Source: a virus
Virus genome (UHGV): UHGV-0324772
DNA: 8,054 bases
Direction: 5' to 3' (one strand)
Shown here one piece after another: positions 1 to 8,054 of the stretch. How positions within the stretch are numbered: position 1 is the stretch's first letter; each line of letters starts with the position of its first letter. The notes under the pieces were generated by a model, which worked only from the letters and a program-made list of their open reading frames with translations, was not told where the DNA came from and did not search any database. Position numbers and translations under genes: made by a program.

Positions 1-156
1 CAGAGCATCAACATTTAAGACACCTGTCTTATAGACCTGAGCCTGTGTTTTTTTCGCGGTGTCGATTTGTACAGCGGAAACATAAACCGCTTTACCTACG
101 CTCGAACCATCCCATACCACCAGTGCACCTGTTGCATCTTCTGGCAATACGGCTCT
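1..156 (-). CDS. Head decoration protein gpD-like fragment (partial; runs off the window start, N-terminal side closed by an in-frame stop at 157-159)
   Basis: Minus-strand frame open from 156 to 1 translates to LPEDATGALVVWDGSSVGKAVYVSAVQIDTAKKTQAQVYKTGVLNVDAL, which aligns by eye with lambda gpD ([36 protein letters not shown]...). No ATG start; not in the ORF track because it is partial. Confidence 0.35.
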
Positions 157-286: not shown

Positions 287-1051
287 TCAGCACCACAGCC
301 AATACCGGCCCGCATCAATCGAATCACCAAGGTCTTTAAGAGCCGTTTCCAGTTCGGAATTAGAACCACGACGGGTATCCAGAGCCTCTTTTATCGCTCT
401 GAATGAACGGTATTTCTTCCATACATTACCGCCCATAATGATGATATTAGTGACGCCCTCACTAAATTCTGCGTAGCTCTCAATATCATCATTTGGATCA
501 AAAGTTTCTTTATCCTTACCTGACCACTCAGCACCGCCAGACTGAGTGATGATATTTTGTGGTTTAATATTCCAGTCCAGCTCATAACGTTCAATACCAT
601 CGCCCTCAATGATATTTTTCCCCGTTGTGATTGCCTGAACGGCAAGCCATTCAATACGTGCACGAATAGCTTTAGCCTGATTTACAATCGCCTGTTTAAC
701 TTTAATATTACGCGCTCCAAAAGCATTGTATTGCTCAGGTGATACACCAGCAGGGCGCACAGCTAACTTATTTGGATCAATGCTGCTTTTCGGCTTCATA
801 TAGCCTGGACGAATTGTTTTTGATTCGTACCCTTCGTCACGTGAAACTTTACTACCCACCATAGGAGAACAAAACGCTGCAATTGGGATATTTGGATCGT
901 CGATTGTATCAAGAATAATATCGCGCGATTCAAACATTACCGAGCGAGTAAAAAACAAACTGGTAAACAACGCATTTAGTTGTTTTTGTACATCTACAGC
1001 ATTAACCACCTGTACAAGCTGGGTAGGCGAATATAAATCAACCATACGCAT
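287..1051 (-). CDS. Lambda gpE-like major capsid protein, C-terminally truncated (about 255 aa versus about 341 aa in lambda)
   Basis: Track ORF 287..1219. Residues from MRMVDLYSPTQLV onward align along the length with lambda gpE as I recall it (LFFTRS/LFFRES, PGYMKPK/PGYVKPK, ITQSGGAEWS/ITQSGGTEWS, DTRRGSNSELETALKDLG near-identical). Start set at ATG 1045 or 1051, with AAGAGG 6 nt upstream of 1045; the 58 upstream codons look like a stop-less extension. ORF stops at 287-289 right after the KDLG motif, so about 90 C-terminal residues are absent. Confidence 0.8.
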   Translation of the reverse strand: MRMVDLYSPTQLVQVVNAVDVQKQLNALFTSLFFTRSVMFESRDIILDTIDDPNIPIAAFCSPMVGSKVSRDEGYESKTIRPGYMKPKSSIDPNKLAVRPAGVSPEQYNAFGARNIKVKQAIVNQAKAIRARIEWLAVQAITTGKNIIEGDGIERYELDWNIKPQNIITQSGGAEWSGKDKETFDPNDDIESYAEFSEGVTNIIIMGGNVWKKYRSFRAIKEALDTRRGSNSELETALKDLGDSIDAGRYWLWC

Positions 1052-1219
1052 CCTCTTTGCATTCATTAAAAATAATTGTGGATATATGCTATCACCGATA
1101 TTTGTCATGCGAATACATGCAACCGAGTGCAATATTGTATAAAGTTTTGGGATAACAACTTCAGCGCGGATAATTAGTGTTAATATCTTCACTCCCTTTG
1201 GTCGGGATTTATGTAGCAT

Positions 1220-1262: not shown

Positions 1263-1712
1263 TTAAAACGGAATATCATCTCCCCATTGTTCATTATCTC
1301 CCACTGGTGGATGGCTTCCTTGCTGATCTGCCTGTTGTTTTGCTCTGTTCAGTGCGTCAGTAGCCTGACCCTGTTGACCTTTTTTGCCGCCCGGTCGCAC
1401 CGTTCGCGCACTGATTACGCTGTCTGCGATAACCTGCCAGCCCTGCCGCGTTTCACCGTTCTGTCCAGTCCACTGGCTCACCTGCATATTACCCGCCACG
1501 CTCAGGAGTTCGCCTTTGTGATGCTTTGCCAGCGCGTCGGCTTGTCTGCCAAACGCCAGGACAGATAACCACATCGTCGCCTGACCGTCATCCGACTGAC
1601 TGCAGGGCAGTGATACCGCCATACGCGCCAGCGTCATGGGGGTGCCCTTGCTGGTCTGTTTTGTCTGCGGGTCGTCCACCAACCGCCCGTAAACTGATAT
1701 TTGCGCCGTCAT
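1263..1712 (-). CDS. ssb: Single-stranded DNA-binding protein (SSB)-like
   Basis: 149 aa. N-terminal region resembles the SSB OB fold (ISVYGRLVDDPQ versus E. coli VILVGNLGQDPE; WLSVLAFGRQADALAKHHKG versus [21 protein letters not shown]), Gly/Gln-rich linker, and the hallmark acidic C-terminal tail ending DDIPF. Start overlaps the upstream ORF stop by 4 nt. Confidence 0.7.
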   Translation of the reverse strand: MTAQISVYGRLVDDPQTKQTSKGTPMTLARMAVSLPCSQSDDGQATMWLSVLAFGRQADALAKHHKGELLSVAGNMQVSQWTGQNGETRQGWQVIADSVISARTVRPGGKKGQQGQATDALNRAKQQADQQGSHPPVGDNEQWGDDIPF

Positions 1713-2000: not shown

Positions 2001-2228
2001 TTCACCTGTTCACCTTTTGATATTTTCTCTTTTAATTCATAATGTTAATGGGTGAACAGTTTCACAAAAACTATTCACCAACTGTTCACCACTGTTCACC
2101 CTTGAAGCTCAATAAACAATCAAAAAGGTGAACAGTGAATAGTTTGGTGAACAGTTCATAAATAACTGTTCACCCTATAATATACTGATATAAAAGATAT
2201 TTATGACAGGGTGAACAGTGGTGAACAG
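2001..2228. repeat. P4-type type-I iteron cluster (TGTTCACC), putative cis replication region / origin bound by alpha protein
   Basis: Nine perfect octamers: TGTTCACC at 2007, 2083, 2093, 2167 and the complement GGTGAACA at 2051, 2127, 2146, 2210, 2220, plus degenerate copies (2001-2006, 2072-2079). An AT-rich stretch lies at 2176-2205. Sits immediately downstream of the alpha gene end, as crr does in P4. Confidence 0.8.
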
Positions 2229-2241
2229 TTATTCCATAAGT

Positions 2242-2686
2242 TTAATTTTTGCTATCGTCATTAGTGACCGATACACATGATGGCATCCAGTCTTCTGATT
2301 CCTCCGTCAGTGTCACGTTTGAACGCAAACCGTGCTTCGTTTTCCGTTTCATATACTCCCTGCCATATTCCGCCATTGCCCCCGGCATATCTTTACCGAA
2401 GCGCGTCAGTGTTACAGGTTTACCAAACCCATGTGCCCTCATATAAGCCAGATAGGCATGATAGAGATACCTGCGTGGGCTGAATGGCACAATTTCAGCA
2501 TTACCCACTAACAGGCCATCACACATTACCGATGCCATGAGATAGCCGCAGAAGTCCACCAGCGAATCCCCCTCTCGCTTTATCGCCAGTGCTTCTTCAG
2601 ATTTCTGCTGCTCATATAACAGGCGTCTGGCTTCGTCCTGATCAGCAAACCGTGTAAGCAGATGGCGAATCACTACCGCCAGCTCA
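2242..2686 (-). CDS. P4 alpha-type primase/helicase, C-terminal region (fragment; track ORF 2242..2673 with GTG start)
   Basis: Translation ELAVVIRHLLTRFADQDEARRLLYEQQ... continues the helicase-domain end seen on the other strand at 2976-3013. Frame is open upstream to a stop at 2707-2709. Ends at stop 2242-2244 next to the iterons. Confidence 0.65.
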
Positions 2687-2687
2687 A

Positions 2688-3015
2688 GTGGTTGGCTTTT
2701 CGCTGATTATCATGCCGGATATGACCCGCTACGCTGGTGATGGGGCAGGGATTAAGGCCATTACAGGCGGTGACAAGGTGGCAATTGACCCGAAACACAA
2801 AGCCCCCTATTCAACGCGTATTCCGGCAGTAGTGCTGGCGGTTAACAATAACGCCATGTCATTCAGTGACCGCAGCGGGGGGATCTCACGTCGTCGGGTG
2901 ATATTCAATTTTTCGGAAGTTGTACCGGAGAACGAACGCGATTCGATGCTGGCGGAAAAAATAGAAGGTGAGCTGGCGGTAGTGATTCGTCATCTGCTTA
3001 CACGGTTTGTTTTTT
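2688..3015 (+). CDS. P4 alpha-type helicase-domain fragment on the opposite strand to the rest of alpha (probable misassembly or inversion)
   Basis: Track ORF 2688..3017. ITGGDKVAIDPKHKAPYSTRIPAVVLAVNNNAMSFSDRSGGISRRRVIFNFSEVVPENERDSMLAEKIEGELAVVIRHLLTRF matches the region after Walker B in P4/D5-type helicases. Its 3' end (2976-3013) is the reverse complement of 2649-2686 with one mismatch. The stop codon is formed partly by adapter bases. Confidence 0.6.
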
Positions 3016-3073
3016 AATGATACGGCGACCACCGAGATCTACACTCTTTCCCTACACGACGCTCTTCCGATCT
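3016..3073 (+). other. Illumina TruSeq universal (P5) adapter, 58 nt, exact: sequencing/assembly artefact
   Basis: AATGATACGGCGACCACCGAGATCTACACTCTTTCCCTACACGACGCTCTTCCGATCT read directly at 3016-3073, preceded by TTTTT (3011-3015). Confidence 0.97.
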
Positions 3074-4064
3074 ACCAGCAGAGGGGGATTCGCTGGATGA
3101 ATAACTGCCAGTCGTACCGGTTCGCCAGCACCATGAATAATGCCGCCAGTACGCGATCTGCCTTGCGGTCATTCTCAGCCACCGAACGGCGCAACCACTT
3201 CCAGAAATTCGGCGCATGTGTTGCCAGCGTTTCCCCCTCTGCTGGTGGGCTGAAAGGTAATTCACTGGCAATTAACAACCAGTCGTTTTTGTTATGCTCC
3301 CGAAAATTACCAGTTCTGGTATCAAATACCCCGTTACTGAATCCAATCAGGTTACGGGCTGTATTCCCCATTACAGGCAAACTTAACTTCATGGTATCTA
3401 CCGCCGATTTAATAGCGTTCTGCGAATAGCTGATCTCCGCATCAATGAAAATCTGCGCCATAGCACGCTGTAACTCTTTATCCTGAACCGGCTCCCATAC
3501 AACGCCGTTGTAATGATGAACGGTGTCAGAGTCGGCATTGATTGCCAGTTCGCCGCCGTAATGTGCAAGGAGAACTTCACCGCGCTGGCTGGCCCCCATC
3601 TGATTCAACGCCAAAGATGAAGCACGCTCGTCATTTTTGCGCTCTGCCTTCTTCACTGGCAGTTCAATCACCAGACTTTCCCCATGCTCCGCTTCAGCTT
3701 TTAGGCCGACAAGGCGCGGAGTCCAGTCTTCAGGCTCTCGATCAACAAAGCTACGGTAACAACGTGCTTCCTTTACGCCTGCAATAGCAAGTAATGTCGC
3801 AACCTTCGTCAGACTTTTCTCTGCAATCTTTCCGGCACGATAAACACGCACATAATGACGGCCTTCATCGATAATTTGCATATCATCCAGGTTTTCCAGT
3901 TGTTCCGTACCCAGAATGACTGGTGGTGTATCATCTGCTGCAATATGCTTACCTGCCCATTCATTCCATTCTTTTGCATGGCTCCAGGCATCACTGCCAG
4001 CAAAAATGATGACTTCCGTCATTTTGTCGCGCGGTTGGTATTTTAAGTTCGGAGCACGTTTCAT
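3072..4064 (-). CDS. P4 alpha-type primase/helicase, N-terminal primase region (reading frame cut off at the adapter junction)
   Basis: Track ORF, 330 aa. Call rests on continuity with the alpha helicase and C-terminal fragments, position in the operon and the adjacent P4-type iterons; an early EVIIFAGSDAW segment is primase-like but not a confident motif match. The terminal stop (3072-3074) is created by adapter bases, so the real protein continues. GGAGG RBS 6 nt upstream; start overlaps the upstream stop (ATGA at 4061-4064). Confidence 0.75.
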   Translation of the reverse strand: MKRAPNLKYQPRDKMTEVIIFAGSDAWSHAKEWNEWAGKHIAADDTPPVILGTEQLENLDDMQIIDEGRHYVRVYRAGKIAEKSLTKVATLLAIAGVKEARCYRSFVDREPEDWTPRLVGLKAEAEHGESLVIELPVKKAERKNDERASSLALNQMGASQRGEVLLAHYGGELAINADSDTVHHYNGVVWEPVQDKELQRAMAQIFIDAEISYSQNAIKSAVDTMKLSLPVMGNTARNLIGFSNGVFDTRTGNFREHNKNDWLLIASELPFSPPAEGETLATHAPNFWKWLRRSVAENDRKADRVLAALFMVLANRYDWQLFIQRIPLCW

Positions 4065-4348
4065 TTGTTACCTCCGGCAACTAACATTGCCCGAATTTTA
4101 CGGATATAGCCTGCGGCACGCCTCTGATTATCTGTCTTGCAATTTTTTACCAGAATGAAATCTCTTTCGAACTGCTGACGCGGCATAACACATTCAAAAT
4201 CATAACCATCACGCAAATAAGAGACACGACGATCATCAACCGAAATAATCTTTACCCGATAGCCATAGCTGTCTTTGAAAATATCCCCAAGGCTGATTTT
4301 TGAATGAGTTTGACCGCTGGCAATAAAGCCAGAAAATTTATTTTTCAT
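4061..4348 (-). CDS. Hypothetical small protein (95 aa), alpha-operon member
   Basis: Track ORF; same strand; stop overlaps the alpha start codon (translational coupling). No motif recognised. Confidence 0.5.
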   Translation of the reverse strand: MKNKFSGFIASGQTHSKISLGDIFKDSYGYRVKIISVDDRRVSYLRDGYDFECVMPRQQFERDFILVKNCKTDNQRRAAGYIRKIRAMLVAGGNK

Positions 4349-4351
4349 TTT

Positions 4352-4576
4352 TTATTCTCCGGTATAGCTCTGGTCGTGTATTTTTATAGCTTCATCCAGC
4401 TCTTTGATGACAGGATCAAGTAACGTAATTAACGCTCCAGCTAAATTAGCATCCCGTTCATCGTGTTCCGCATTTGTTGTCCCATCAAGCCAGGTTGATA
4501 AGATTTCTCGCATATTTTTGCCACAAACGAGCGCGTTTTCAGCATGTGTCAGCACTTTAAAATAAAGATCATTCAT
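4352..4576 (-). CDS. Hypothetical small protein (74 aa), alpha-operon member
   Basis: Track ORF; start overlaps the upstream ORF end by 8 nt; acidic, helical-looking sequence. Confidence 0.45.
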   Translation of the reverse strand: MNDLYFKVLTHAENALVCGKNMREILSTWLDGTTNAEHDERDANLAGALITLLDPVIKELDEAIKIHDQSYTGE

Positions 4577-4934
4577 GGCACACCTCCTGACGAATACGGG
4601 CGGCGAATATCATCACGTAGCCAGTTGGGGATTGCAGCCGGGCTTCCTGTTCGCTGGCGGCCTCGATGTGTATTACGCGTGGTTGTGCGGTGCTCAGGGC
4701 GATAAAACGCCAGATGAAATTGTTTTCGCATTTCTGAATAAACAGCGTGTTTTCTTCACGCCCTTTCCAGAAAGCCGCAGTATAGCCCATCTCCTTAACC
4801 ATCTTGCGGGCATCAACCAGCGTGTCAGCGGCTACATGTACCGTAGTTGCTCCATCTGCCATGCGGTCGTGGTGTAGTGCCAGAAAGGTGTATATAAATT
4901 TAGGGTGAGTTTGGGTATGCTGTGTTCCAGCCAT
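4569..4934 (-). CDS. Hypothetical protein (121 aa), first gene of the alpha operon
   Basis: Track ORF; GAGG 8 nt upstream of ATG 4934; sits downstream of the predicted minus-strand promoter. Confidence 0.5.
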   Translation of the reverse strand: MAGTQHTQTHPKFIYTFLALHHDRMADGATTVHVAADTLVDARKMVKEMGYTAAFWKGREENTLFIQKCENNFIWRFIALSTAQPRVIHIEAASEQEARLQSPTGYVMIFAARIRQEVCHE

Positions 4935-4996
4935 AATCGTTACCTCATTTAACGGGTTGGTTAGACGCCTCGATGGTGTTCCCGCACGTCGAGGCG

Positions 4997-5076
4997 TTGC
5001 ATTTTCCTAAACACGTATGTAATGTGTCATCACACATTAACACATTACATCGGGTGTAATTGACGTGTCAACACAC
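4997..5076. promoter_or_regulatory. Divergent promoter region with repeated operator-like half-sites (ACACATTA / TGTAATGT)
   Basis: Plus strand: TTGCAT (4997-5002), 17 nt, TAATGT (5020-5025). Minus strand: TTGACA (complement of 5066-5071), 18 nt, TAATGT (complement of 5042-5047). Inverted repeat atgtaatgtgt (5017-5027) / acacattacat (5040-5050), plus acacatta (5032-5039) and gtgtaatt (5054-5061). Confidence 0.4.
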
Positions 5077-5244
5077 AAAAATCAAAGACGTGGTAATCCT
5101 CCGTTCCAGTTTCGGTTAGATCCTGAGTTGAGGGAGTTGATGGAGCAAGCACAGCAAGTAGATGGAGACGAATCTTTAGCAGCCTGGATTAAAAGGATTA
5201 TTCGCAAAGAACTACAGCAACGCGGATATGAAGTCAAAATTTAA
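5065..5244 (+). CDS. Small ribbon-helix-helix (Arc/CopG-like) putative transcriptional regulator; start uncertain (GTG 5065 or ATG 5140)
   Basis: Below the track's length cut-off. Frame open from 5041 to TAA at 5242-5244. Translation ...PPFQFRLDPELRELMEQAQQVDGDESLAAWIKRIIRKELQQRGYEVKI has a beta-strand then two helices, as in RHH proteins. Divergent from the alpha operon, convergent with the TIR-like gene. Confidence 0.4.
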   Translation: MSTHKNQRRGNPPFQFRLDPELRELMEQAQQVDGDESLAAWIKRIIRKELQQRGYEVKI

Positions 5245-5257
5245 CAGATAATATTTC

Positions 5258-5290
5258 ATATAGAGCCATTTATCTCGAATGGCTCTATAT
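5258..5290. terminator. Perfect 13-bp stem hairpin between convergent genes (putative bidirectional terminator)
   Basis: atatagagccatt (5258-5270), loop tatctcg, aatggctctatat (5278-5290); followed on plus by gattttta. Lies between the RHH stop (5244) and the TIR-like stop (5320). Confidence 0.55.
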
Positions 5291-5319
5291 CTATGCAGAT
5301 TTTTAGTTCAAAGAATTTA

Positions 5320-6195
5320 CTAAACTGCGTAACCAGTAGCTCGCAAGTCTTTAATAATGCTATATGCTACTTCTTCAATAGAAGAATTGAATTTTTTATA
5401 AATAAGACCATTCAAATCACTTGGAATCACTACATCACCTGTGTATAGACAACAAACCTTAGAACGACCTAATTTCCCTACGAAATAACCAAATTCAAAC
5501 ATTACATTTGGTCGTGCACGTAACTCCTTTTCTCTTTCATTATCAGGTAAAGAGTCTTGCGGCAATAAATAAGCGATCTCATCAGGTGTGAGAAGAATGA
5601 ATGCGAAACCAACATCACTATTTGCTTCAAATTTCTCAATCACTGTCTGGCCTACATCAGCTTGCCTATGGAGAACAATAGGTTCTAAGCCAATTTCTCT
5701 TAAAAACACCTCTAAGTTGGTTTTTGATATTTCATCTCTTCCATGAACAATGAATACTTTTTTGGTTTTTACCGCTGAACTCTGAGGTACTTCAATATTT
5801 TCTTCAACAACTTTGGAAGATATAGGAATTAACTCCAGTCGCTCCATAATCGACTCTAGTTTTCTTATCTTACTCTGGAGTTTACGCGTAGCCTCACTGA
5901 TTTTTTCTCCCAAGGAAGTCTCGTACAATGAAATAACACCAAATGCCCCACCTTCATATTCTTCTTTGAAATCATCATTTGTGAAACTACGCTTCAGTAG
6001 CTCAGCATTAAAATCACTCCATTTCCTGTAATCAGCATTAAACAGCTCCAAGTCACTATTGTTATTTATGCTTTTCTGTAGGAGTAATAATCCTTTTTGA
6101 ATTCTGTCTTGAATTTTATCTTTCATATCATCTCTTGATATGATTAGTTCACAAACAGTTTTCATTTCTACGCTATTTTTTTTTCGAGTAGCCAT
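5320..6195 (-). CDS. TIR-like (COG4271/PF10137-type) domain protein with an unassigned N-terminal domain; candidate anti-phage NADase effector
   Basis: Track ORF, 291 aa. Residues about 145-291 carry the pattern I associate with TIR-like nucleotide-binding proteins: KKVFIVHGRD, GLEPIVLHRQ, TVIEKFE, VGFAFILLTPDE, RARPNVMFEFGYFVGKLGR, IPSDLNGLIY. N-terminal about 140 aa is helical with no TM segment or known motif. Good RBS (AAGGGTG, 5 nt, ATG). Visibly AT-rich compared with flanks. Confidence 0.7.
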   Translation of the reverse strand: MATRKKNSVEMKTVCELIISRDDMKDKIQDRIQKGLLLLQKSINNNSDLELFNADYRKWSDFNAELLKRSFTNDDFKEEYEGGAFGVISLYETSLGEKISEATRKLQSKIRKLESIMERLELIPISSKVVEENIEVPQSSAVKTKKVFIVHGRDEISKTNLEVFLREIGLEPIVLHRQADVGQTVIEKFEANSDVGFAFILLTPDEIAYLLPQDSLPDNEREKELRARPNVMFEFGYFVGKLGRSKVCCLYTGDVVIPSDLNGLIYKKFNSSIEEVAYSIIKDLRATGYAV

Positions 6196-6231
6196 GCTTA
6201 CACCCTTTTATATAACAATTTACTACAACAT

Positions 6232-6459
6232 TTATGTCCGCCATTCCCCCCTAATCCATGCCTGAACTTCGGAGAGACGGTAAGCTACCGCAGTAGCGCC
6301 AATCTTGATCCGCTTAGGAAATTTTCCTTCCTTCTCCAGCTTCCAGCGTGTGCTGTTCGCAAGAGTGGTTAGCTCCCGACATTCTTTCTCACGGATCATA
6401 CGATCAATGTTAGGAATGTACTCCAGACCCTTTTTATCAACAATTGCCATTTTTTTCAT
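6232..6459 (-). CDS. alpA: AlpA/Vis-family small DNA-binding regulator or excisionase-like protein
   Basis: 75 aa; the central segment resembles AlpA-family (PF05930-type) prophage regulators; lies 1 nt downstream of the integrase stop on the same strand. Confidence 0.7.
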   Translation of the reverse strand: MKKMAIVDKKGLEYIPNIDRMIREKECRELTTLANSTRWKLEKEGKFPKRIKIGATAVAYRLSEVQAWIRGEWRT

Positions 6460-6460
6460 G

Positions 6461-7696
6461 TTAACCAGCCTTTTGTTTGAGGATTGTCACTTTTGAATCA
6501 GCACCTGCGATGCTATTGAGATATGTAGTCCAGAGTTCCAGAGCATCCAGTTTTTTAGCCATAAACTTACTCCGATTGTAAACACCTGCCACGCCAGGTA
6601 GCGCATGGCCTAACAGTTGTTCTACTACATAAAATTCAACACCGAGATCACTTAGATGAGTAGATAGCGTTCTTCTAAGGTCGTGTAGTGACCATTGTTT
6701 TTCATGGCCCAAACGTTTACCGATTTTCCCCCCAATCTTGCTTACGCTTTCTCTAATTCGCAGACTTCCCAGCACATAACCAGTATGTTTTGTCTCTTCG
6801 TGAACATCCGTTACCCACTGTCGTAGAATTTCAGGTACTGGTCTGACGATTTCAACACCAGTTTTTGAGTGATCTTTTGGTACAGTCCAAACCCAACTTT
6901 CGAGATCCCATTCGCTCCATTCTGATAATCGGGCTTCACTCATTCGACATCCAAATACTGTACAAAGCACAAACATTTTTCGCGTGTATTCAGACATTAG
7001 TTTTAAATCAGGCTCGACAAAAATTGCCTTCCAGAGCTGGCCGAGTTCGGCTTCATCCAGAACCCGATCCCGCTTACCTGCAATCTGCCCCACATCACTC
7101 ATGCGCAAATCCTTTAAAGCATCACACGTCGCGTACTGGCGTACCCGACAAAAACGAAGAGCTAATTTAGTGTCAGAAAAAACATACGCCGCCATAACTG
7201 GTGCATTACGTTTAATTCGGTCAAAACAGTCCAGCCATTCATATAGGTGAGTGTCATTTACGGGCAAATGACCGATATAGGGAAAGATATGCTTTCGAAA
7301 TCTGCCAAGCGTTACAGCATGAGTTTTACGACGCACCTTACAGTAATTTTCATACCAGTAATTTAGTGCATCCTCCACTGTGACCGGCTTTAAGCGTTCT
7401 TCAGCCTGAATCTTAATCTGGATACGCGGATCACGTTTGTCAGCCAACCAACCACGGCACTCGTCGCGCTTTTCCCTTGCCTGTTTGAGTGACATATCAG
7501 GATATTTACCCAACGTTAGCCAGACCGGAGCAGCCCGGCCACCTGCTAACCTGTAGAAGAAAACAAAGCTCACAGCCCCTTTAGTACTCACACGAATAGA
7601 AAGCCCCTTTCCATCAGCAATGGTGATCTGCTTTTCTCTGGGTTTCCCCAGATATCCTTTAAGCGCTTTGTCGCTCAGTTTGTTCTCGCCAGCCAT
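6461..7696 (-). CDS. int: Tyrosine site-specific integrase, P4-like family
   Basis: Track ORF 6461..7747; likely start at ATG 7696 (MAGENKLSDKALKGYLGKP...ADGKGLSIRV resembles the P4-type N-terminal arm-binding domain). C-terminal catalytic signatures HDLRRT and LLGH...GVYNRS (Tyr). Confidence 0.9.
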   Translation of the reverse strand: MAGENKLSDKALKGYLGKPREKQITIADGKGLSIRVSTKGAVSFVFFYRLAGGRAAPVWLTLGKYPDMSLKQAREKRDECRGWLADKRDPRIQIKIQAEERLKPVTVEDALNYWYENYCKVRRKTHAVTLGRFRKHIFPYIGHLPVNDTHLYEWLDCFDRIKRNAPVMAAYVFSDTKLALRFCRVRQYATCDALKDLRMSDVGQIAGKRDRVLDEAELGQLWKAIFVEPDLKLMSEYTRKMFVLCTVFGCRMSEARLSEWSEWDLESWVWTVPKDHSKTGVEIVRPVPEILRQWVTDVHEETKHTGYVLGSLRIRESVSKIGGKIGKRLGHEKQWSLHDLRRTLSTHLSDLGVEFYVVEQLLGHALPGVAGVYNRSKFMAKKLDALELWTTYLNSIAGADSKVTILKQKAG

Positions 7697-7828
7697 TTTT
7701 AGCCCCAAAAAGCAATACAAGCTGCAATACAGAGATGATTGCAACACACAGATAACGAGGAAAATTCAGTGAAAGCGCCAGATAAACTTATTCTTTATTA
7801 TCAAAAGATTAAGTGTAAAAACCAGCAA

Positions 7829-8054
7829 CTACACGAAAGCCTCAGAAAGCCATGCTAAGTGCTTCGGCTTGACATATCCCGGTGTAAATTCAGAGGTGGA
7901 GCCGCCACGGGAGCGGATAACCTCACCGGAAACAATCGGCGAAACGTACAGCGCCATGTTTACCAGTCCCGGAATTTGTGAGAGATAGACTTTCTCCGTG
8001 GTGAAGGGATAGCTCTCACGGAAAAAGAGACGCAGAAACAGCGGATCAAACTTA
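7829..8054 (-). pseudogene. Lambda gpE (major capsid) N-terminal fragment, truncated; start lies beyond the window end
   Basis: Minus-strand translation from the window edge, KFDPLFLRLFFRESYPFTTEKVYLSQIPGLVNMALYVSPIVSGEVIRSRGGSTSEFTPGYVKPKH, matches lambda gpE residues about 17-82 as I recall them, then runs into 9 unrelated codons and a stop at 7829-7831. Confidence 0.7.

What the first reader, a model, noticed from the sequence alone, without database searches (positions are those of the whole stretch)
7697..8054. Lambda gpE N-terminal fragment ends about 130 bp from the integrase start, and no tRNA or att site is visible
The right flank encodes gpE residues about 17-82 (apparently lambda-identical) and then diverges abruptly at about 7859. 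P4-type integrases usually sit next to a tRNA-derived att site, but I see no tRNA-like sequence in 7697-7860. So the satellite module is either embedded in a disrupted lambdoid capsid gene, which would be an unusual integration context, or the contig is chimeric here too. A second E homologue of different divergence on the left flank adds to the mosaic picture.
Basis: partly seen in the sequence, partly recalled or inferred. Interest (0 to 1): 0.45.

Follow-up and report, generated by a model that had tools for sequence, protein, structure and literature searches.

The report
Known satellite splitting a prophage capsid gene
The integrase lies next to a piece of a lambda-type capsid gene because this is a phage satellite described in 2023 (a helper-embedded PICI) that inserts itself into codon ~80 of its helper prophage's capsid gene; the junction is real but not new.

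Summary
Window 8054..7860 (minus strand) encodes lambda gpE residues 18-82 (193/195 nt identical to lambda E nt 51-245). Similarity stops sharply at 7859/7860, and there is no tRNA. An att site is present, however. The 10-bp identity block AGCCGAAGCA (7860-7869, lambda E codons 79-82) is the crossover site of a published satellite family. These are the helper-embedded PICIs (HE-PICIs) of site group E:Phage_cap_E:80 (Tommasini, Mageeney & Williams 2023, PMC10111431). The window's integrase is 410/411 aa identical to that of the founding element Eco567.11capE, and the 163-bp arm 7697-7859 is 100% identical. The family-specific doubled motif TGTATTGCnnnnTGTATTGC sits at 7712-7731, at the published distance from the att centre. 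The same int|E' junction occurs in 173 of 5426 complete E. coli genomes, so this end of the contig is not chimeric. In those genomes the other half of E lies about 10.6-11 kb away, beyond the window's left end, behind the same 10-bp repeat. Removing the island in silico restores a 341-aa E ORF. The "second E homologue" is the satellite's own capsid gene (41% identical to E), not a flank. The contig is scrambled elsewhere, including an Illumina adapter at 3016-3073. Verdict: real, and already known.

The parts
7860..8054 (-). 5' fragment (E') of the helper prophage's lambda-type major capsid gene E. It corresponds to lambda E nt 51-245 (residues 18-82) and runs off the window end.
   Evidence: 193/195 nt identical to lambda NC_001416; 100% identical to lambda-like phages; annotated as a partial major capsid protein lacking its C-terminus in RefSeq genomes.
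7860..7869 (-). att identity block (crossover region of attL): AGCCGAAGCA on the coding strand, TGCTTCGGCT on the + strand. It corresponds to lambda E nt 236-245, codons 79-82.
   Evidence: Present once in intact E and twice, 10,571 bp apart, in L001 at both island ends. The same 10-mer is listed as the identity block of E_Phage_cap_E_80 HE-PICIs in the supplement of PMC10111431.
7829..7859 (-). Satellite-derived tail of the interrupted E reading frame. His82 is kept (CAC), followed by LAWLSEAFV and a stop codon at 7831-7829.
   Evidence: Translation.
7697..7859 (-). Integrase-proximal arm of the satellite attachment site (the P' arm of attP, here part of attL), plus the int upstream region.
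   Evidence: 100% identical to the founding HE-PICI Eco567.11capE (L004) over the stretch compared, and matches the published attL alignment. No terminator-like site on the minus strand between E' and int.
7712..7731 (-). HE-PICI-specific doubled motif TGTATTGCAGCTTGTATTGC, a putative arm-type binding site.
   Evidence: Exact match with 0 expected by chance. Its edge (with the published 'tg' prefix, 7733) is 131.5 bp from the att centre at 7864.5; the paper gives 132 +/- 2 bp. In L001 the second copy lies 81.5 bp beyond the other junction; the paper gives 81 +/- 2 bp.
6461..7696 (-). Tyrosine integrase of the satellite (411 aa, P4-like with an arm-binding domain).
   Evidence: Pfam Arm-DNA-bind_3, Phage_int_SAM_3 and Phage_integrase above curated cut-offs; Phage_int_M at 25.5 bits, just under its 27-bit cut-off. 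410/411 aa identical to the Eco567.11capE integrase.
6232..6459 (-). AlpA-family regulator and putative excisionase.
   Evidence: Pfam Phage_AlpA, E=6e-15; 72/75 aa identical to the founder's protein.
5320..6195 (-). Variable-zone cargo: a TIR-domain protein and candidate anti-phage defence gene.
   Evidence: Pfam CAP12-PCTIR_TIR, E=1e-33; PADLOC PDC-S35, E=7e-67. This segment differs between L001, L003 and L004.
2242..4064 (-). Satellite primase gene (D5_N type). In this contig it is broken by an inverted segment and an adapter sequence.
   Evidence: Pfam D5_N. It is an intact 1821-bp gene in L001, L003 and L004. Rearrangement shown.
1263..1712 (-). Satellite single-stranded DNA-binding protein.
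   Evidence: Pfam SSB.
322..1219 (-). Its 3' end is scrambled in this contig.
   Evidence: Pfam Phage_cap_E. The intact 346-aa version in L003 is 41% identical to lambda-type E. It lies inside the island in all complete genomes examined.

Best explanation
Window 7697-8054 is the attL junction of a helper-embedded phage-inducible chromosomal island (HE-PICI) of the published site group E:Phage_cap_E:80. This roughly 11-kb satellite carries int, alpA, a variable zone, primase, SSB, an origin, and its own capsid and decoration genes.

[quoted passage not shown] That split E into an 82-codon 5' fragment, seen here at 7860-8054, and a 3' fragment about 10.6-11 kb away, beyond the window's left end.

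Shown here: the junction, the core, the arm motif, near-identity to the founding element, recurrence in complete genomes, and that in silico excision restores E.

Shown in the literature for the founding element: after mitomycin C induction the prophage-satellite composite excises and replicates, and then the satellite excises precisely, re-forming attB (intact E) and attP.

Inferred: helper late transcription reads through E' into the co-oriented int-alpA genes and so times excision; the helper cannot make its capsid protein until the satellite leaves; and the doubled motif binds the integrase arm domain or AlpA.
For: - E fragment and sharp breakpoint.
- The 10-bp direct repeat lies at both island ends in L001 (9690 and 20261). 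The allelic variant TGCTTGGGTT lies at both ends in L003 and L004. A single copy is present in intact E.
- Joining the two E fragments of L001 across one copy of the repeat gives a 1026-nt ORF of 341 aa. It matches the lambda-type E of phage 1H12 at 339 of 342 aligned positions, stop included.
- The integrase is 410/411 aa identical to that of Eco567.11capE, and the compared attL arm is 100% identical.
- The doubled motif is exact, with 0 expected by chance, and lies at the published spacing.
- The satellite arm occurs in 175 of 5426 complete E. coli genomes, and in 173 of them it is contiguous with the E fragment. All 40 listed rows of a spread sample have 'major capsid protein' under the match.
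- int, alpA, primase, SSB and the capsid gene are all on the same strand as E'.
- No terminator-like site lies on that strand between E' and int.
- The published description, the induction experiment and the supplement listing this exact identity block are in PMC10111431.
Against: - The window holds only one of the two junctions, so for this particular contig the second E fragment is inferred from genomes that are 99-99.9% identical.
- Other parts of the same contig are demonstrably misassembled (adapter at 3016-3073, inverted segments), so physical linkage in the sequenced sample rests on comparison with complete genomes, not on reads.
- Helper dependence, packaging and the read-through model are untested. 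The authors of PMC10111431 could not detect virions of either partner.
Confidence: 0.95

Rival explanations
1. The int|E' junction at 7859/7860 is an assembly chimera, like the artefacts elsewhere in this contig.
For: The contig contains an Illumina TruSeq universal adapter at 3016-3073 and segments that are inverted or displaced relative to complete genomes (1-141, 142-321, 2687-3009).
Against: Window 3097-8054 is collinear with the complete chromosome of strain W284 at 99.86% in a single alignment. The junction itself occurs at 99.6-100% identity in the listed top hits among the 173 complete genomes that carry it. It is also the published attL of a characterised element.
Confidence: 0.02
2. 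The E fragment is debris of a decayed prophage (deletion or illegitimate recombination) that merely happens to adjoin an island integrated elsewhere, for example at a tRNA.
For: The paper notes a sister group with a nearly identical integrase sitting in tRNA-Phe.
Against: No tRNA was found. The complementary E fragment is present at the other island end with the same 10-bp direct repeat, and the two fragments reconstitute a full-length E ORF. The surrounding head and tail genes of the prophage are intact and collinear. The breakpoint is identical in 173 genomes.
Confidence: 0.02
3. The arrangement is a fixed, immobile remnant. The satellite once integrated site-specifically into E but no longer excises, so E is permanently inactivated in this strain.
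For: The paper notes that many helpers of HE-PICIs look truncated, and no virions were recovered. In one relative (strain E04) the integrase gene appears interrupted by about 2.7 kb.
Against: In the window, int and alpA are full-length ORFs, and the integrase differs by one residue from that of an element shown to excise. The att core and arm motif are intact.
Confidence: 0.15

Closest known systems
Eco567.11capE and the HE-PICI site group E:Phage_cap_E:80 (Tommasini, Mageeney & Williams, NAR Genom Bioinform 2023, PMC10111431)
   Same: The integrase is 410/411 aa identical and the attL arm is identical. The target codon in lambda-type E is the same. The identity block is a published allele (agccgaagca). 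The doubled TGTATTGC motif is at the same spacing. The gene order (int, alpA, variable zone, primase, SSB, capsid, decoration) and the co-orientation with E are the same.
   Different: The variable zone between alpA and the Icd-like gene carries a TIR-domain gene in place of the founder's genes. The founder has the aacccaagca allele of the identity block. In the relatives examined the helper prophage carries DLP12-type genes (nohD, essD, rrrD), whereas the founder's helper is at icd.
Gram-negative PICIs of the EcCICFT073 type
   Same: Size (~11 kb), the int-alpA-primase organisation and the lambdoid helper type, as stated in PMC10111431.
   Different: Those integrate in chromosomal genes apart from the helper and interact only in trans. 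This element sits inside a helper late gene.
Satellite P4 and P4-like elements
   Same: The integrase has a P4-type architecture (Arm-DNA-bind_3 plus the Phage_integrase catalytic domain). The island also has a D5-type primase, an AlpA-family regulator and an Icd-like gene.
   Different: There is no tRNA att site. No P4 capsid-size or immunity RNA family matched in Rfam. The helper is lambdoid, not P2-like.
Capsid-forming PICIs (cf-PICIs, e.g. EcCIEDL933; bioRxiv 10.1101/2022.09.08.507074)
   Same: It carries its own HK97-fold major capsid gene and a head decoration gene. Some relatives also carry a small terminase gene.
   Different: No portal, protease or head-tail connector genes are annotated in the island in L001, L003 or L004, so the full capsid-forming module is absent.
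Regulated gene integrity / 'active lysogeny' elements (e.g. the B. subtilis skin element in sigK, Listeria phi10403S in comK; from general knowledge, and cited as a concept in PMC10111431)
   Same: The target gene is disrupted without a replacement sequence and is restored only by precise excision.
   Different: The interrupted gene belongs to another mobile element (the helper phage), and the switch presumably serves the satellite, not the cell.

Membership tests
HE-PICI, site group E:Phage_cap_E:80 | Primary tyrosine integrase belonging to the 11capE clade | tested here: met
   410/411 aa identical to the integrase of the founding element in NRG857c. Pfam Arm-DNA-bind_3 plus Phage_integrase.
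HE-PICI, site group E:Phage_cap_E:80 | Integrated within a cognate of lambda late gene E at about codon 80, with a short identity block shared by attL and attR | tested here: met
   attL is in the window, with the block at 7860-7869 (lambda E codons 79-82). attR is outside the window but is seen with the same block in L001, and with the allelic block in L003 and L004. The block is listed in the paper's supplement.
HE-PICI, site group E:Phage_cap_E:80 | Key satellite genes (int, alpA, primase) co-oriented with the interrupted late gene | tested here: met
   All are on the minus strand, as is E'.
HE-PICI, site group E:Phage_cap_E:80 | Doubled motif tgTGTATTGCantgTGTATTGCa at 132 +/- 2 bp downstream and 81 +/- 2 bp upstream of the attP centre | tested here: met
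   The downstream copy is at 7712-7731, 131.5 bp from the centre, with 0 expected by chance. The upstream copy is outside the window and lies at 81.5 bp in L001.
HE-PICI, site group E:Phage_cap_E:80 | Embedded in a (lambdoid) helper prophage | tested here: met
   In L001, L003 and L004 the island is flanked by collinear lambda-type head and tail genes (terminase, portal, protease, D, E', then 'E, FI, FII, tail). The window itself shows only E'.
HE-PICI, site group E:Phage_cap_E:80 | Precise excision on induction that restores the late gene | not testable with these tools
   In silico excision restores a 341-aa E ORF. Experimental proof exists only for the founding element (PMC10111431).
HE-PICI, site group E:Phage_cap_E:80 | Helper-dependent packaging and transfer (satellite status proper) | not testable with these tools
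   Not shown even in the literature; no virions were detected.
P4-like satellite at a tRNA att site | tRNA gene or tRNA 3' fragment at the integrase-proximal junction | tested here: not met
   ARAGORN found none and Rfam gave no hit at E<=0.1. The junction sequence is capsid-coding.
Capsid-forming PICI (cf-PICI) | Complete capsid morphogenesis and packaging module (capsid, portal, protease, connectors, TerS) | tested here: not met
   Only capsid and decoration genes are annotated in the islands of L001, L003 and L004, plus TerS in L001.

The most novel reading that the evidence does not exclude
The most novel reading not excluded concerns the product of the interrupted gene, gpE residues 1-82 fused to the satellite-encoded tail LAWLSEAFV. 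This product would be made from helper late transcripts before excision. It could act as a dominant-negative capsid fragment, or as a signal that biases assembly towards the satellite's own 41%-identical capsid protein. That would add a protein-level interference layer to the published cis-regulatory model. A second, smaller possibility arises because the same TIR-carrying satellite variant is found with two alleles of the 10-bp block, each matched at attL and attR. This could reflect allele-specific matching between satellite attP and helper E.
Probability: 0.05. Interest if true: 0.4.

Novelty: already known. Interest (0 to 1): 0.12.

Why it matters
It resolves an apparent anomaly, a P4-type integrase with no tRNA butted against a capsid-gene fragment, as a textbook instance of a recently described satellite lifestyle: integration inside the helper prophage's own capsid gene. 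For annotation, 'partial major capsid protein' pseudogenes next to an integrase in E. coli prophages should be read as HE-PICI junctions and not as prophage decay. About 3% of complete E. coli genomes carry this arm (175 of 5426). It adds nothing conceptually new beyond PMC10111431. The real open questions are untouched by sequence analysis: whether HE-PICIs are packaged, by what, and whether late read-through times their excision.

Tried and rejected
- tRNA/tmRNA search of the whole window found none. An Rfam scan at E<=0.1 found nothing, so there is no tRNA-like att and no C4/isrK-type immunity RNA in this variant.
The partner att lies outside the window, so this test could not have worked.
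- I tested whether the satellite's own capsid gene could serve as an att partner or self-target. The homologous 10-mer (window 786-795) is AGCCGAAAAG, 7/10 matching, and the surrounding 63 nt are 28/63 identical. It is not an att copy, which agrees with the paper's remark.
- The promoter and terminator scan of 7500-8054 gave one weak promoter-like site on the minus strand (7819..7790, 9/12), which is no more than chance (0.7 expected). It gave no minus-strand terminator, so no claim is made about an int promoter.
- The chimera hypothesis for this junction was rejected.
- The cf-PICI classification was rejected because the island lacks portal, protease and connector genes.

Full report

The six-frame ORF list and a direct translation show that the minus strand of the window's right end reads KFDPLFLRLFFRESYPFTTEKVYLSQIPGLVNMALYVSPIVSGEVIRSRGGSTSEFTPGYVKPKH, then LAWLSEAFV and a stop. 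Against phage lambda itself (NC_001416, gene E 6135-7160), window 8054..7860 corresponds to E nt 51-245. Identity is 193/195 nt, both differences are synonymous, and the fragment covers residues 18-82. Several lambda-like phages match at 100% over exactly these 195 bases, and no phage record matches anything to the left of 7860. The next 40 nt are 12/40 identical to lambda, which is random.

ARAGORN finds no tRNA or tmRNA in the window, and Rfam gives no hit at E<=0.1.

The stated 130-bp distance is approximate. The gap is 163 bp to the ATG at 7696. That start gives the 411-aa product annotated in RefSeq relatives, with the arm-binding domain beginning at residue 7. The gap is 112 bp to an upstream in-frame GTG at 7747.

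**2. Is the junction an assembly artefact?**

No. A megablast of 7600-8054 against 5426 complete E. coli genomes finds 173 genomes in which one alignment covers at least 80% of the query. That coverage requires both the integrase side and the E side; the listed top hits are 99.6-100% identical. The satellite-only arm, 7400-7859, occurs in 175 genomes. Every one of the 40 listed rows of a spread sample has a partial 'major capsid protein' under the match. Window 3097-8054 aligns in a single block at 99.86% to the chromosome of strain W284 (L003).

The contig is nevertheless faulty elsewhere (see section 6).

**3. What is it?**

I examined three complete genomes: ECA64 (L001), W284 (L003) and NRG857c (L004). 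In each, the integrase is the first gene of a 10.6-11.1 kb island with this gene order:

- int, then an AlpA-family gene
- a variable segment
- an Icd-like gene and DUF4222
- a D5-type primase
- SSB
- a major capsid gene and a head-decoration gene
- an HTH gene
- variable cargo

The island lies between two pieces of a lambda-type E gene. The surrounding prophage is otherwise collinear with lambda: Nu1/A, W, B, C, D, E', then the island, then 'E, FI, FII, Z, U, V and onward.

Aligning both junctions with an intact E gene shows a 10-bp direct repeat. It reads TGCTTCGGCT on the + strand, or AGCCGAAGCA in coding sense. It sits at both ends of the island and occurs once in intact E. In the window it occupies 7860-7869, which is lambda E nt 236-245, codons 79-82. 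Deleting the island and one repeat copy from L001 restores a 1026-nt ORF of 341 aa. That ORF matches a lambda-type E at 339 of 342 aligned positions, stop included.

The att site therefore exists. For the same reason an in-window repeat search finds nothing relevant.

The 'second E homologue' at 287-1219 is the satellite's own capsid gene (Pfam Phage_cap_E). Its intact form is 41% identical to lambda-type E. At the position homologous to the att block it reads AGCCGAAAAG, and the flanking 63 nt are only 28/63 identical.

**4. Comparison with what is known**

[quoted passage not shown] The paper describes the following:

- An 11-kb PICI, Eco567.11capE, in E. coli NRG857c. It is integrated in and disrupts the lambda-type capsid gene of an icd-integrated prophage, yet it bears its own capsid gene.
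- A 10-bp identity block between attL and attR.
- 201 elements in total at the same site, named E:Phage_cap_E:80.
- A doubled motif, tgTGTATTGCantgTGTATTGCa, unique to HE-PICIs. One copy lies 81 +/- 2 bp upstream and one 132 +/- 2 bp downstream of the attP centre.

I tested each feature:

- **Integrase.** I fetched the founding element (CP001855.1/1199333-1210409 = NC_017634.1). Its integrase is 410/411 aa identical to the window's.
- **AlpA and arm.** AlpA is 72/75 aa identical, and the compared attL arm down to the int start is base-for-base identical.
- **Doubled motif.** It is present exactly once in the window, at 7712-7731 on the minus strand, with no match in 200 shuffles. Its edge is 131.5 bp from the block centre. 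In L001 the second copy lies 81.5 bp beyond the other junction.
- **Identity block.** The paper's supplement lists 'agccgaagca' as an identity block of this group (86 occurrences in the stored table). It also lists the alleles 'aacccaagca', carried by the founder and W284, and 'agcccaagca'.

Every sequence-level defining feature is met, so the window is a member of a described family.

It is not a tRNA-targeting P4-like element, because no tRNA is present. It is not a capsid-forming PICI either, because no portal, protease or connector genes are annotated in the island. Later literature only cites the 2023 paper and adds no further experimental work in the library searched.

**5. How it most likely works**

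Shown by sequence here: site-specific insertion by a P4-like tyrosine integrase at a 10-bp block in E, and co-orientation of all core satellite genes with E. No terminator-like structure lies on the coding strand between E' and int. The interrupted frame ends nine codons into the satellite.

Shown experimentally for the near-identical founding element: after mitomycin C treatment the prophage-satellite composite excises from icd and replicates. About an hour later the satellite excises precisely, producing the predicted attB and attP.

Inferred, following the authors' model:

- Helper late transcription runs through E' into int-alpA and the rest of the island.
- The helper cannot make capsid protein until the satellite leaves, a case of 'regulated gene integrity' that serves the satellite.
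- The four half-sites of the doubled motif bind the integrase arm domain or AlpA.

Packaging and transfer have not been demonstrated for any HE-PICI. The authors found no virions.

**6. Things seen in passing**

- **Adapter and rearrangements.** The contig contains the 58-nt Illumina TruSeq universal adapter at 3016-3073, inside the primase gene. Next to it, 2687-3009 is inverted relative to all three reference genomes. At the left end, 142-321 is inverted and 1-141 is displaced. These are assembly artefacts and should not be interpreted biologically.
- **Iterons.** A cluster of GGTGAACAGT iterons and inverted repeats at 2028-2243, in the gap between the primase 3' end and the small ORF at 1709-1954, looks like the satellite origin.
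- **TIR-domain gene.** The variable zone carries a TIR-domain gene at 5320-6195. It matches Pfam CAP12-PCTIR_TIR and the PADLOC candidate system PDC-S35. Other genes occupy this position in L001 and in the founder.
- **Block alleles.** The window is 99.86% identical to W284 across 3097-8054, yet it has the other allele of the 10-bp block. In each genome examined, attL and attR carry the same allele.

**7. Verdict**

The feature is a genuine but already published phenomenon. Novelty: already known. Interest: low (0.12). Its only value is as a correct re-identification and as a caution about the quality of the rest of the contig.

Noticed in passing
window 3016-3073 (with 3010-3096 unmatched to reference genomes): The exact 58-nt Illumina TruSeq universal adapter (AATGATACGGCGACCACCGAGATCTACACTCTTTCCCTACACGACGCTCTTCCGATCT) is embedded in the primase gene. 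It yields the spurious ORF peptide '...TEIYTLSLHDALPI...'. It is an assembly or trimming artefact.
   Followed up: yes
window 1-141, 142-321 and 2687-3009: These segments are displaced or inverted relative to three complete genomes. 1-141 matches the head-decoration gene, 142-321 is an inverted piece of the capsid 3' end, and 2687-3009 is an inverted piece of the primase gene bounded by 41-nt inverted repeats. They are fold-back-type misassemblies, so the left third of the contig is unreliable.
   Followed up: partly
window 2028-2243: A dense cluster of GGTGAACAGT iterons and nested inverted repeats lies between the primase 3' end and the small ORF at 1709-1954. It is probably the satellite's replication origin.
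   Followed up: no
window 5320-6195 (-): A 291-aa TIR-domain protein (Pfam CAP12-PCTIR_TIR, E=1e-33; PADLOC candidate system PDC-S35, E=7e-67) lies in the variable zone after alpA. The zone differs in ECA64 and in the founding element, which suggests a swappable defence-cargo slot.
   Followed up: partly
window 7860-7869; L001 9690 and 20261; L003 1876 and 12861; L004 2331 and 13408: The 10-bp att identity block is polymorphic: AGCCGAAGCA in the window and ECA64, AACCCAAGCA in W284 and NRG857c. In each genome both junctions carry the same allele. The window is otherwise 99.86% identical to W284 yet has the other allele.
   Followed up: partly
NZ_CM143912.1 (strain E04), about 3261139-3263838: In this relative the matches to window 4000-7586 and 7578-7859 are separated by about 2.7 kb and share a 9-bp overlap. 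The N-terminal piece is annotated only as an 'Arm DNA-binding domain-containing protein'. This looks like an insertion (possibly an IS with a 9-bp target duplication) inside the integrase gene.
   Followed up: no
L001 9981-11397; L003 2040-3756; L004 11537-13253: The far (attR-proximal) end of the island carries different cargo in different genomes. ECA64 has a DUF2971 gene plus a small terminase gene. W284 and NRG857c have a DUF262 plus HEPN gene pair.
   Followed up: no
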